A stretch of DNA of 46,805 nucleotides from a virus (Duplodnaviria; Heunggongvirae; Uroviricota; Caudoviricetes). The stretch is from the IMG/VR virus record IMGVR_UViG_2703718823_000005; one strand, given 5' to 3'. This document shows positions 1-3,000 of this stretch, in pieces. Positions within the stretch are counted from its first letter, which is position 1; each line of letters begins with the position of its first letter. The position numbers are program-made.

Positions 1-3000
1 CCAGACGGTTTAAATGAGCCGGTTACCTTCAGTCAGACTTCAGTGACCCAAGGTCTCAACCATCAAGCCGTATAGTCTCCCACCTTGGGTCTTCCTACTT
101 AAAGTTGGAGGACCTGAGTTTAGGGTGCAGTTTAAATAAGACACCAAGTTGGAGGACCTGAGTTTAGGGTGCAGTTTAAATAAGACCACAGACAGACTTA
201 GAGTCGGACAGCCGAAGGCGAACCAGTGGGCCTATAGTCAGGAGGGATTATGATTATTATCACCCTCCATAACTTCAGTCAGACTTCAGTGACCCAAGGC
301 ACAAACCATAGCTATCTATGGTCTCCCACCTTGGGTCTTCCTACTTAAAGTAAAGCTGTCTTCAGCACCTCAGCCAGTCTCTGGACTGCATGTCCTTTCC
401 CGTACAGGTCATACGTAATGGACTGACTGCTATGGCCTAAGATGCCCTGAGCATCCACCAGATTGACTCCACGCTCTTTCATGCGGGTCGCCAGCCAATG
501 CCTCAGACTGTGGAGAGAGACATCCTGAGAGTCTCCTAGGGCCTCAGTCAGGACCCTAGAGTTAAACCAGCTAGAGTATGCGCTTGGAGTCATCCCGAAG
601 AGAGGACCCTCGTCAGGCTGCATGTCTACCCATTCGAGGAAGGACTTCAGGTCAAGACCACAGGCCCCATCGGTCAACGGCACAAGTCGGACTGAATGCT
701 TGTTCTTCACAGACTTACCGTCCCCATCTTCGTTGATGTCGATACAGACCAGTCCATTGTCTAAGGTTACAATGTCACGTTTAGTCAGGTGGCAGACCTC
801 AGCAGACCGAGCGCCAGTAGCTACAGACACCAGAGACGCCCATCTACGGGCCTCAGAGGTCGTGTGAGCCGTGTGTCGTGTGAACTGATACTCAGCCTCA
901 ACACGGACCAGAAGTCTCTCCAGCTCCTCGTCTGTGAACGCTCTGCGCTTGGAGTCGATATCCTTGGTCAGCTTCATCCGTTCAATAGGGTTGCGGCCCT
1001 CAAGTTGCCCATTCATCAGACCGTAGTCAAGACACATCTTCGCCTTAGTCAGCAGCTTGTTAATCGTCGACGGTCTCACCTCAGAAGCCAGCATAGCGTC
1101 CCTGACAGCCAGCCACTCAGAGCGGGACATCAGGTCCATGTCTTCAGGTAAGAACCGAGAGACGGTATTCAGTGAGGACGACAGGTCCTTGTAGCTGGAT
1201 GACTTCAGGGTCTGGACCTTCTCAGCCAGCAGCGAGGACACTAGCTCAGAAAAACTACAGATAGCTGGTTGGTCAGCGATAGTGACCTCAGGTTGGGGCT
1301 CCTGTGTGAAAACTGCTGGTCTATCCCCCTGCTCATTCTTCAGAATTGACGTAGAGTCGCCTATAGTTGAGTAATCAGTATGGTTATTATCATCAATCAG
1401 CTTAATCAGACCAGAGGTATCACCAGTGTCTACCCTCTGCTGTGCTGCGGTCAGGACTTCAAGCGCTAACCTTATGCCCTTCTGCTGGTCCAGACTTAAG
1501 GCTTGCGTAGCGGCTAGCTCCTTCAGGTTGGACTTCTCGTCCACCAAAGTAGCGACCTCAAGTCCATTCCAGTAATCGTCACTAGCGTCTGTCAGGAACT
1601 GCTCAGCCATAGACCGGAGGTGCTCTGTAAGCTCCTGTAGCGAGACATCAGGCCTATCCAACATGAAGGACTTAGCTGTGGCTGCAAGCTCTCTCTGACG
1701 CATTGTGGCTACTCTCCTGTCTGTGCTTCGGGTCGATACTGAAAGAAACGGGATGGTCTGTCCCTTGAGTCTGAAGCGGATAGTATATCGACCATTGGCT
1801 CTACGGACTAACTGAGGCTTAGCAAGTAGCGAGCAAGCCACGCCGAGTAGGTTGATTTGTGTCAGCCTTGTGTCAGGACTTGAGGTGTAGACTTGCTGAT
1901 ACAGATAGGGAGACCCAGAGAAAGAACTGGATGGATATACAGTATTGTCATGGTTAATGTCAGTCATATCAGGACCTTAAGTAGCGTTGAGTCAACTACT
2001 TCAAGTCCGTCCATCCGTCTGACAGTGGAGTCCATCTGGAACTACGCGGGAAATACCCTCGTTAATCAGCATTCTGACATCAACAAAACGCATGAAATTC
2101 TGCAGGACGAATCGAAATGCGAAATGATTGTGGTCATCGAAAACTTTATGACCTCATCGGCAAAATATGCCGACATTCTGCTGCCAGACCTGATGACCGT
2201 TGAGCAGGAAGATATTATTCCTAACGACTACGCCGGTAACATGGGATATCTCATTTTCCTCCAGCCTGTCACCAGCGAAAAATTCGAACGCAAACCGATT
2301 TACTGGATCCTGAGTGAAGTCGCGAAACGTCTTGGACCTGACGTCTATCAAAAGTTCACTGAAGGTCGCACGCAGGAACAATGGTTACAACATCTGTACG
2401 CCAAAATGCTTGCCAAAGATCCGGCGTTACCGTCTTACGACGAACTGAAAAAAATGGGTATCTATAAGCGTAAAGATCCCAATGGTCATTTTGTCGCCTA
2501 CAAAGCATTTCGTGACGACCCCGAGGCAAATCCACTTAAAACACCTTCCGGTAAGATTGAAATTTATTCCAGCAAGCTGGCGGAAATTGCCCGTACCTGG
2601 GAACTGGAAAAAGATGAAGTGATAAGCCCACTGCCAGTTTATGCCTCTACCTTTGAAGGCTGGGACTCCCCTGAACGTAGAACCTTCCCACTGCAACTGT
2701 TTGGTTTCCATTACAAATCCCGTACTCACTCGACCTACGGCAATATTGATCTCCTGAAGGCTGCCTGCCGTCAGGAGGTGTGGATCAACCCTATAGATGC
2801 GCAGAAACGTGGGATTGCCAACGGCGATATGGTGCGGGTGTTTAACCATCGTGGCGAAGTTCGGCTACCAGCCAAAGTAACACCACGTATTCTCCCTGGA
2901 GTTAGCGCTATGGGCCAGGGAGCCTGGCACGAGGCCAATATGTCTGGCGATAAAATCGACCATGGCGGCTGTGTGAATACGCTAACCACTCTGCGCCCTT

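What the first reader, a model, noticed from the sequence alone, without database searches (positions are those of the whole stretch)
27..350. Structured repeat block 3' of the integrase gene
Two 78-bp imperfect-palindrome copies (27-104 and 273-350) share 27-bp and 30-bp blocks around a divergent 21-bp centre. Between them lie two 44-bp tandem units and a GGAGGG/CCCTCC hairpin. Copy B overlaps the integrase stop codon, and its terminal CTACTTAAAG recurs inverted (CCTTAAGTAG) at 1975-1984 just beyond the integrase start, so the recombinase gene is bracketed by short inverted repeats. None of this resembles REP/ERIC elements or integron attC sites I can recall. It could be recombinase binding sites, a miniature nested element, or a structured RNA.
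Basis: seen in the sequence. Interest (0 to 1): 0.6.

Follow-up and report, generated by a model that had tools for sequence, protein, structure and literature searches.

The report
Control region of a T7-type satellite island
The repeat block is real. It is best read not as integrase binding sites but as the non-coding control region of a small, apparently undescribed island in the E. coli ynfE gene that carries T7-like-phage promoters, a copied piece of phage genome-end DNA and its own capsid gene, so it looks like a parasite of virulent T7-like phages.

Summary
All the repeats exist as described. Three facts change their meaning.

- Bases 1-26 are the end of an IS66-family element (ISCro1). 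The window is a whole draft contig that stops there, so copy A abuts an IS and the true length of the A/B repeat is unknown.
- Only this contig has two hairpin units. Thirty-five related loci have one unit, one small hairpin and 0-3 copies of the 44-mer.
- The integrase gene is not bracketed. The element is a roughly 6.3-6.9 kb island in ynfE, and its right end is the att core CATCTGGAACT at 2033-2043.

In related copies, the island carries minus-strand promoters identical to those of Kayfunavirus-type T7-like phages. It also carries a conserved, highly diverged HK97-fold capsid protein. Its integrase resembles those of temperate T7-like phages.

Inside the block, the GGAGGG/CCCTCC hairpin is 96-100% identical to an element that 158 T7-like phages hold between promoter phiOR and gene 19.5. 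The 78-bp units fold best as minus-strand RNA two-tier stem-loops. The 44-mers match nothing and have no structure.

Best reading: helper-derived cis-control DNA of a candidate satellite of T7-like phages. The exact function of each part is inferred, not shown.

The parts
1..26 (+). Right terminal sequence of an IS66-family insertion sequence (ISCro1). The IS body lies beyond the contig end.
   Evidence: The same 26 nt, preceded by IS sequence, occur in L005, L050 and L051 next to tnpA/tnpB/transposase. There are thousands of places in E. coli chromosomes and plasmids. The window is the whole contig.
27..104 (-). Hairpin unit copy A. Outer stem 45-54 / 82-91 (GACCCAAGGT / ACCTTGGGTC). The inner stem ACUAU/AUGGU forms only on the minus strand. 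Flanks are CTTTAAGTAGGAA and ACTGAAGTCTGACTGAAG (minus-strand sense).
   Evidence: minus-strand RNA -24.8 kcal/mol (z -2.6) against plus strand -15.6. Present only in this contig.
102..189 (-). Two tandem 44-nt units. Minus-strand unit: TTATTTAAACTG-CAC-CCTAAACTCAGGTCCTCCAACTTGGTGTC.
   Evidence: Copy number is 0-3 in 35 relatives, mostly 1. Variation between islands sits in a 7-nt patch. No structure (z -0.5), no phage match and no promoter-matrix match.
233..269 (.). Small hairpin GGAGGG-N16-CCCTCC (241-268) with flanks. It is a near-identical copy of an element found near the right genome end of T7-like phages.
   Evidence: Matches of 28-37 nt at 96-100% identity, mostly one place per genome (160 places), in 158 phage records. 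In the two phages inspected it lies between promoter phiOR and gene 19.5.
273..350 (-). Hairpin unit copy B, directly after and overlapping the integrase stop codon (345-347). Outer stem 291-299 / 329-337, inner stem ACCAUAG/CUAUGGU.
   Evidence: minus-strand RNA -31.3 kcal/mol (z -4.3), about 20 paired positions. Present in all 36 loci. 98% of cells paired, one compensatory pair.
345..1967 (-). Tyrosine integrase, 540 aa.
   Evidence: Pfam Phage_integrase. The nearest phage relatives are integrases of temperate T7-like Pseudomonas phages, 34% identity, E 1e-56.
1857..1876 (+). Two tandem TTGTGTCAG repeats inside the integrase 5' coding region: candidate arm-type integrase sites.
   Evidence: The same 20-mer recurs near attL in L001 and L002. 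Phage 3MF5 has TTCTAACAG repeats in the same relative positions.
1975..2005 (.). Palindrome CCTTAAGTAG-N11-CTACTTCAAG in the attR arm, between the integrase start and the att core.
2033..2043 (+). att core CATCTGGAACT, the right boundary of the island in ynfE.
   Evidence: attB from an uninterrupted ynfE compared with attL and attR.

Best explanation
The block is the non-coding control region between the integrase gene and the cargo operon of a roughly 6.3-6.9 kb integrative island in ynfE. The island appears built to be run by an infecting T7-like phage, so it is a candidate phage satellite.

All island genes read on the minus strand. In related copies, pairs of phage-RNA-polymerase promoters follow the block and drive the cargo. 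The cargo includes a scaffold-like protein and a highly diverged HK97-fold capsid protein.

The block is made of phage-genome-end-type signals:
1. A two-tier stem-loop directly after the integrase stop codon. It most likely acts in the minus-strand transcript as an RNase III-type processing site or 3'-end protector, and it separates integrase expression from the cargo.
2. A 28-nt hairpin copied almost exactly from the phiOR-gene 19.5 region of Kayfunavirus-type phages. It is most likely a site read by a helper-phage factor for replication, packaging or RNA handling.
3. A 44-nt spacer segment that duplicates easily.

The two 78-bp copies in this window come from a strain-specific rearrangement, followed by insertion of ISCro1 beside copy A.

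Shown here: the anatomy, the phage identities, the capsid fold and the island boundaries. Inferred: satellite behaviour and what each part does.
For: Island context:
- The island interrupts ynfE, with an 11-bp core repeated at both ends.
- Its architecture is the same in 8 E. coli loci. About 138 of 5,426 complete genomes hold it.
- Close integrase relatives are named by their source records as E. coli, Shigella, Citrobacter and Enterobacter. Related loci were fetched from Citrobacter, Kluyvera, Shigella and Leclercia.
- The integrase's best phage matches are temperate T7-like phages.

Promoters:
- A matrix built from phage PP81 promoters finds at least 2 hits per complete island. All hits at 10 bits or more are on the minus strand at conserved positions. 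There were 0 hits at 8 bits or more in 39.7 kb of flanking DNA (on a wider background the maximum was 13.3 bits).
- The island site CTAAACTATCACTATAGGGAGAC is identical over 23 nt to a motif present about 5-8 times per genome in 342 T7-like phage records.
- A distant relative, L052, has paired Pseudomonas-type T7-like promoters instead.

Capsid protein:
- The model has pLDDT 82.
- There are 211 PDB matches at E <= 0.001, and the 50 listed are all HK97-fold capsids or encapsulins.
- Distant family members carry C-terminal Ig-like domains.

The block itself:
- The small hairpin matches 158 phages, near the right genome end in the correctly oriented records.
- Motif densities on the block's sense strand equal those of the phage IMM-002 right end and are 4-15 times those of E. 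coli DNA.
- The hairpin units are more stable as minus-strand RNA. They show one compensatory pair and G-U pairs that fit only the minus strand.
- A hairpin right after the integrase stop also occurs in L052.
- Local duplications occur with units of 44 nt, about 101 nt (L048) and at least 246 nt (this window).
Against: - No strong phage-type promoter lies within window 1-2043 itself. The promoter and capsid evidence comes from related copies, because the contig stops at the IS.
- Covariation in the hairpin is thin: one compensatory event among 12 closely related variants.
- The small hairpin has only about 10 paired positions, too short for a classical RNase III site.
- I could not find what the small hairpin does in the phages.
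- The Kluyvera relative matches phages only at its promoters, so the phage-end copy is not universal in the family.
- No excised or packaged form was seen. The 6.6-6.9 kb metagenome contigs checked begin and end in ynfE sequence, so they are assembly breaks, not free forms.
- No portal, terminase or replication gene was recognised.
Confidence: 0.6

Rival explanations
1. The block is mainly a DNA-level replication origin or packaging signal that imitates the helper phage's right-end region. The AT-rich-loop hairpin and the AT-rich 44-mers would serve as an unwinding or primase-loading zone next to phage promoters, or as the site read by the helper terminase. This overlaps with the best explanation and differs in emphasis: DNA signal rather than RNA structure.
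For: - The small hairpin is nearly identical to phage DNA about 100 nt downstream of phiOR and 300-650 bp from the right genome end.
- From my own knowledge, not tested here: in T7, phiOR acts as a secondary origin, and plasmids need an origin plus the concatemer junction to be packaged.
- The hairpin loop is flipped between phages IMM-002 and phiYIO1-1 while the stem is kept. That fits a symmetric DNA or cruciform site.
- The 44-mer junctions hold GTGTC and TGGTC. The repeats in L052 hold GGGTC. These are the classic T7 primase recognition sites (my knowledge).
- Tandem repeat arrays occur at this position in several island types (L009, L052).
Against: - Most relatives have a single 44-mer, so it is not an iteron array as a rule.
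- GGTC/GACC is frequent throughout the island, so the primase-site match may be compositional.
- No terminal-repeat-like sequence was found.
- G-U pairs favouring one strand fit RNA or single-stranded DNA better than duplex recognition.
Confidence: 0.3
2. The repeats are binding sites for the island's integrase or an excision factor, or mark a secondary recombination site.
For: - CTTNAAGTAG occurs at both hairpin units and as a palindrome in the attR arm, 4 times against 0.14 expected.
- The unit flank GACTTCAGTGACCC loosely resembles GGACTTGAAGCGGACCC at attL.
- The block is linked to this integrase family in all E. coli-type copies.
Against: - The block is about 1.7 kb from the crossover core.
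- The motif was defined after seeing it, and part of it encodes the integrase C-terminus and stop codon.
- Better arm-site candidates (TTGTGTCAG repeats) flank the core on both arms.
- Such AAGT-type short motifs are generally abundant in T7-like genome ends.
- Islands with 85-91% identical integrases in Citrobacter and Kluyvera have unrelated sequence after the gene.
- The small hairpin occurs in 158 phages that have no integrase.
Confidence: 0.08
3. The block is functionless leftover DNA from a decayed temperate T7-like prophage. The repeats would be neutral slippage and recombination products.
For: - Duplications of different unit lengths and phases (44, about 101, at least 246 nt), and IS insertions into the block in two strains, show that it tolerates rearrangement.
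- The island copies are close relatives, so conservation alone says little.
Against: - The island keeps a constant architecture and intact genes across many strains and several genera.
- Its promoters are identical to those of present-day phages, while its proteins have diverged beyond sequence recognition.
- The small hairpin is 96-100% identical to phage DNA. Both points argue for ongoing selection or exchange.
- Stem pairing is kept through loop replacements and one compensatory change.
Confidence: 0.15

Closest known systems
Capsid-forming PICIs (cf-PICIs) and other phage-inducible chromosomal islands
   Same: A small integrase-bearing island with its own HK97-fold capsid protein and none of the rest of a virion, apparently dependent on a helper phage.
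   Different: - Much smaller (about 6.5 kb against about 10-15 kb).
- No recognisable portal, protease, small terminase, AlpA, repressor or primase-replicase.
- Cargo sits behind helper-type single-subunit RNA polymerase promoters rather than a repressor-derepression switch.
- The presumed helpers are virulent T7-like phages.
The cf-PICI features are from my own knowledge.
PICMIs, minimalist satellites of virulent phages in Vibrionaceae (PMC10803314)
   Same: A minimal island of a few genes with an integrase, linked to virulent phages. Packaging as a concatemer would also solve the size problem here.
   Different: - PICMIs integrate next to fis, have three core proteins for excision and replication, and carry no capsid genes (abstract).
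- This island sits in ynfE, has a capsid gene, has phage-polymerase promoters, and has no recognisable replication gene.
Intergenic control regions and genome ends of T7-group phages (phiOR region, RNase III hairpins, short end repeats)
   Same: - Promoter followed by hairpin followed by gene.
- A hairpin with an AT-rich loop just upstream of gene 19.5. T7 has GGTGAT...ATCACC at the same place.
- High density of CCTAAAG/AAGTC-type short motifs.
- The 28-37 nt identity to Kayfunavirus-type phages.
   Different: - The order and relative orientation of the two hairpins differ from the phages.
- There is no terminal repeat.
- The 44-mer has no phage counterpart.
Lambda sib retroregulation of int
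   Same: A long imperfect hairpin placed 3' of an integrase gene that could control integrase mRNA fate through RNase III.
   Different: - sib lies beyond attP and is separated from int in the prophage. Here the hairpin stays attached to int.
- There is no U-tract terminator here.
- RNase III cleavage has not been tested.
The sib features are from my own knowledge.

Membership tests
Integron attC sites or REP/ERIC-type repeats | An attC-type imperfect palindrome flanking gene cassettes next to an integron integrase, or multi-copy dispersal of the repeat around the chromosome | tested here: not met
   There is one block per genome, always next to this integrase (median 1 place per genome). The hairpin unit is not repeated between the other island genes. 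No Rfam family matches.
Integrase arm-type or core-type binding sites | Repeated motif located in the attP arms within about 200 bp of the crossover core | tested here: not met
   The block is about 1.7 kb from the core at 2033-2043. TTGTGTCAG repeats do meet this criterion.
Integrase arm-type or core-type binding sites | Binding by the integrase protein | not testable with these tools
   Needs gel-shift or footprinting assays.
T7-group phage RNA polymerase promoters | A 23-nt match to a phage promoter consensus (-17 to +6), on the coding strand upstream of genes | tested here: not met
   For window 1-360: the best minus-strand scores are at or below 0.1 bit, within background. Related islands meet it just downstream of the block: 21-27 bits, and exact identity to the motif in 342 phages.
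RNase III processing hairpins of the T7 type | About 20 paired positions in an imperfect hairpin within a transcript | tested here: inconclusive
   Copy B folds into 11 + 9 pairs on the minus strand, copy A into 10 + 6. Pairing is kept in 98% of cells with one compensatory pair. The small hairpin has only about 10 pairs.
RNase III processing hairpins of the T7 type | Cleavage by RNase III | not testable with these tools
   Needs transcript end mapping in wild-type and rnc mutant cells.
Phage satellites (PICI, cf-PICI, PICMI, P4-like, PLE) | Integrase-bearing island smaller than a phage and lacking a full virion gene set | tested here: met
   6.3-6.9 kb, with an integrase and about 6-9 genes. 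The only virion-type gene recognised is one HK97-fold capsid protein.
Phage satellites (PICI, cf-PICI, PICMI, P4-like, PLE) | Signature genes of the named families (AlpA, primase-replicase, small terminase, Psu/Delta/Sid, and others) | tested here: not met
   Pfam, PHROG and PADLOC scans find none. It therefore cannot be filed in an existing satellite family.
Phage satellites (PICI, cf-PICI, PICMI, P4-like, PLE) | Helper-dependent induction, packaging and transfer | not testable with these tools
   Only indirect signs exist: helper-type promoters and the phage-end element. The metagenome contigs checked are not free forms.
IS66 family insertion sequence (bases 1-26) | Terminal sequence ending in GTAA (read outward), next to tnpA-tnpB-transposase, with an 8-bp target duplication | tested here: met
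   The identical end sequence adjoins ISCro1 genes in L005, L050 and L051. In strain RM10410 the 8-bp duplication GTTTAAAT is visible. The IS body itself lies outside the window.

The most novel reading that the evidence does not exclude
The ynfE island is the first member of a new family of satellites that parasitise virulent T7-like phages. In this reading it stays silent until the helper's own RNA polymerase fires its promoter pairs. It then builds a small capsid from its own diverged HK97-fold protein. The block at 27-350, especially the copied phiOR-gene 19.5 hairpin, would be the signal through which the helper's replication or packaging machinery is diverted to the island.
Probability: 0.35. 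Interest if true: 0.9.

Novelty: new variant of a known kind. Interest (0 to 1): 0.72.

Why it matters
T7-like phages are strictly virulent, widely used in phage therapy and biotechnology, and to my knowledge have no described satellite in E. coli. An island present in about 2.5% of complete E. coli genomes, and found in related genera, would be a new way for a mobile element to sense and exploit a virulent phage. It carries exact copies of these phages' promoters, a copy of one of their genome-end elements, and its own capsid gene.

It could affect phage-therapy outcomes. It would give a compact natural sensor of phage RNA polymerase. It would also make the poorly understood right-end signals of T7-group genomes testable through a 6.5-kb mimic. 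The repeat block is the part of the island most likely to hold those signals.

Tried and rejected
- Rfam on 1-2400 at a permissive threshold: nothing.
- Sigma-70 promoter and intrinsic terminator scan: chance level, and no terminator after the hairpins.
- 44-mer dimer against 50,697 phage records: no match. 44-mer pattern in viral contigs: none.
- Promoter matrices from T7, PP81 and 3MF5 on the block: no hit above background.
- Idea that the 6.6-6.9 kb metagenome contigs are excised forms: rejected. Those checked begin and end in ynfE sequence and have no terminal overlap.
- Idea that GTTTAAATGAG at 8-18 is a third 44-mer-like unit: rejected. It is the ISCro1 end.
- ORF 40-189 (minus strand, 49 aa) through the 44-mers: rejected, because 44-nt copy-number changes shift the frame.
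- The whole island (without the integrase gene) against phage DNA: no match.
- The island capsid family against T7 gp10 by profile comparison: no relation. Against PDB sequences: nothing.
- The first structure model, from a shallow alignment, was unusable (pLDDT 43).
- PADLOC: no known defence system, only a partial match (E 5.9e-07 over about 48 residues) of a KilA-N protein to the candidate family PDC-S22.
- Ten literature searches found no description of this island. The only trace is that ynfE is listed as a gene interrupted by an integrative element (PMC7192596).
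Full report
**1. The observation**

The repeats are in the sequence as described.
- Copies at 27-104 and 273-350 share identical 27-nt and 30-nt blocks around a divergent 21-nt centre.
- A 44-bp unit is repeated in tandem at 102-186, 1.9 copies at 100% identity.
- GGAGGG (241-246) and CCCTCC (263-268) close a 16-nt AT-rich loop.
- Copy B overlaps the stop codon of a 540-aa tyrosine integrase (345-1967, minus strand).
- CCTTAAGTAG at 1975-1984 is a 9/10 inverted match of the unit's end.

**2. Three corrections**

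First, bases 1-26 are the right end of the IS66-family element ISCro1.
- The same 26 nt, preceded by IS sequence, adjoin tnpA/tnpB/transposase genes in three fetched loci and match thousands of places in E. coli.
- The window is the complete draft contig LOJC01000061.1, which stops inside that IS.
- Copy A therefore abuts an IS junction. The true length of the A/B repeat cannot be known from this contig.

Second, the two-copy layout is unique to this contig.
- Among 35 other loci (E. coli genomes, other genera, metagenomes), every one has a single hairpin unit, one small hairpin and 0-3 copies of the 44-mer core, mostly one.
- No complete E. coli genome reproduces the window's arrangement.
- A strain with the same integrase protein has a different duplication, with a unit of about 101 nt.
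- Another strain has ISCro1 inside the 44-mer.
- So this region rearranges easily.

Third, the integrase gene is not bracketed as a unit.
- An uninterrupted ynfE was compared with both junctions.
- This shows an island inserted in ynfE with the core CATCTGGAACT at each end. The right end is at 2033-2043.

**3. What the element is**

The window holds the last 2 kb of a roughly 6.3-6.9 kb island.
- About 138 of 5,426 complete E. coli genomes hold it.
- Close integrase relatives are named by their source records as E. coli, Shigella, Citrobacter and Enterobacter. Related loci were fetched from Citrobacter, Kluyvera, Shigella and Leclercia.
- ynfE was already listed as a gene interrupted by an integrative element (PMC7192596).

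The layout is constant and all genes are on the minus strand. In reading order it is:
- integrase
- the block
- a variable gene of about 160 aa
- a variable module (KilA-N, AP2-annotated or orphan proteins)
- a 163-aa protein
- a 330-aa protein
- small ORFs
- attL

Three lines tie the island to T7-like phages.

(a) Integrase. Its best phage matches are integrases of temperate T7-like Pseudomonas phages (34% identity, E 1e-56). These have the same placement of short repeats around the integrase start.

(b) Promoters.
- A matrix made from the annotated promoters of Pectobacterium phage PP81 finds at least two hits in every complete island. All hits at 10 bits or more are on the minus strand at conserved positions. 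There were none at 8 bits or more in 39.7 kb of flanking DNA.
- One site is identical over 23 nt to a motif present about 5-8 times per genome in 342 T7-like phage records. These include Escherichia, Klebsiella, Salmonella and Kayfunavirus phages.
- Each strong site has a partner 28 nt upstream with a different specificity patch.

(c) Capsid protein.
- The conserved 330-aa protein has no sequence-level annotation.
- With a deep alignment from a profile search it gives a confident model (pLDDT 82).
- That model matches HK97-fold capsid proteins and encapsulins only (211 PDB hits at E <= 0.001).
- Distant members carry C-terminal Ig-like domains, a hallmark of virion proteins.

A distant relative on a 7-kb contig has the same plan. 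It has an integrase, a hairpin right after the stop codon, an array of short repeats, paired Pseudomonas-type T7-like promoters, a capsid homologue and a KilA-N protein. The family seems to adopt the promoter type of the local T7-like phages.

**4. The parts of the block, read on the minus strand**

The 78-bp units are two-tier stem-loops: a 10-bp outer stem, an internal loop and a 5-9-bp inner stem.
- They are clearly more stable as minus-strand RNA: -24.8 and -31.3 kcal/mol (z -2.6 and -4.3), against -15.6 and -23.9 for the plus strand.
- Across 12 variants, 98% of cells pair.
- One outer pair changes C-G to A-U, and two outer-stem pairs appear as G-U. A G-U in the inner stem of copy A, read directly from its sequence and fold, adds a third. 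All of these work only on the minus strand.
- The inner stem survives complete loop replacement.
- This evidence is suggestive, not strong, because the sequences are close relatives.

The small hairpin is the most telling part.
- Bases 233-269 match 158 T7-like phage records at 96-100% over 28-37 nt, mostly one place per genome (160 places in all).
- In Kayfunavirus IMM-002 the match lies about 110 nt downstream of promoter phiOR and 41 nt upstream of gene 19.5.
- T7 has an analogous hairpin at the same spot.
- The loop is flipped between two phages while the stem is kept.
- The island's proteins have diverged beyond recognition, so near-identity of this short element, like that of the promoters, argues that a phage factor reads it.

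The 44-mers match no phage, no promoter matrix and no structure (z -0.5). Their variation between islands is confined to a 7-nt patch. I treat them as a duplication-prone spacer of unknown role.

On its sense strand the block has the same density of CCTAAAG-type, AAGTC-type and GGTC/GACC motifs as the IMM-002 right end. That is 4-15 times the density in E. coli DNA.

**5. How it most likely works**

Shown here:
- the island boundaries
- phage-type promoters in relatives
- the capsid fold
- the phage identity of the small hairpin
- the strand preference of the hairpins

Inferred:
- In uninfected cells only the integrase is expressed.
- On infection by a matching T7-like phage, the phage polymerase transcribes the cargo.
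- The big hairpin marks and protects the end of the integrase message and/or is cut by RNase III.
- The small hairpin recruits a helper function for replication, packaging or RNA handling.

I put 0.6 on the general reading: helper-derived control DNA of a T7-like-phage-dependent island, not recombinase sites. The specific role of each part is less certain.

**6. Rivals**
- A purely DNA-level origin or packaging mimic: 0.3. This overlaps with the best explanation.
- Recombinase sites: 0.08.
- Functionless relic: 0.15.

The CTTNAAGTAG motif is enriched (4 against 0.14 expected). But it was chosen after the fact and partly encodes the integrase end. It also belongs to a motif style common in T7-like genome ends. 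The TTGTGTCAG repeats on both att arms are better arm-site candidates.

**7. Comparison and novelty**

The nearest known systems are capsid-forming PICIs and the minimalist PICMI satellites of virulent phages (PMC10803314).
- None of their signature genes is present.
- Wiring through helper-polymerase promoters is not a feature of those families as far as I know.
- Ten literature searches found no description of this island. The library is incomplete, so prior work cannot be excluded.

I rate it a new variant of a known kind.

**8. Limits**
- The promoter and capsid evidence comes from sister copies, because this contig ends at the IS.
- No free or packaged form was seen.
- No replication, portal or terminase gene was recognised.
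- The native function of the phage hairpin is unknown to me.

Noticed in passing
window 1-26: The contig, which is the whole window, ends inside an IS66-family ISCro1 inserted right beside hairpin copy A. The expected 8-bp target duplication would be CTTCAGTC. Strain RM10410 has the same IS inside the 44-mer, with the duplication GTTTAAAT.
   Followed up: yes
window 5544-46805: A large prophage is inserted just after ynfF, apparently in ynfG. It carries AntA/Ant antirepressors, Ead/Ea22, DUF4752, and a 2,806-aa ORF at 10562-18982 (minus strand) annotated as an LPD38-domain protein in identical copies. Window 5544-12000 is 100% identical in several human-derived strains, some of them named STEC, that have an intact ynfE.
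   Followed up: partly
window 1857-1876; L001 15228-15247 and 21802-21821: Tandem TTGTGTCAG repeats lie inside the integrase 5' coding region and again in the attL arm. These are likely arm-type integrase sites. Pseudomonas phage 3MF5 has TTCTAACAG repeats in the same relative positions.
   Followed up: partly
L046 (phage IMM-002) record coordinates 39437-39464, compared with L047 (phage phiYIO1-1) record coordinates 40046-40081: The loop of the conserved hairpin upstream of gene 19.5 is in opposite orientation in the two phages while the stem is kept. The palindrome seems to have been inverted in place.
   Followed up: partly
L001 19300-19349, L002 19332-19382 and equivalents: Phage-type promoters come in pairs 28 nt apart with different specificity patches (CTATCAC with CCCCTCAC or GCACTCAC). 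The same pairing is seen in the distant relative L052 (CCCCCAC with CCCTCAC). This may allow a response to more than one phage polymerase.
   Followed up: partly
L009 6200-6500 (minus strand): This island type has three tandem units of about 78 nt, each containing TTGACA and TATATATAC, between the 44-mers and the phage promoter. It recalls the three strong early host promoters at the T7 left end.
   Followed up: no
L001 17108-17599 and 16037-17026 (minus strand): A conserved 163-aa protein, with a charged repetitive central stretch that looks coiled-coil by eye, sits directly upstream of the capsid gene. This is the same order as the T7 scaffold (gene 9) and capsid (gene 10). It gives only weak hits to T7_gp14 (E 0.012) and DUF6971.
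   Followed up: partly
L001 17040-17065 (minus strand): The leader of the capsid gene, GGACTCACAGTATTTAAACTAATTTAGGAGA, contains a T7-type GACTCAC core and a stretch resembling the T7 gene 10 translation-enhancer leader.
   Followed up: no
L052 2140-2300: In the distant relative, the region after the integrase holds five short hairpins separated by a repeated TGGTGGGTCTG motif. This is a different repeat array at the same position as the 44-mers.
   Followed up: no
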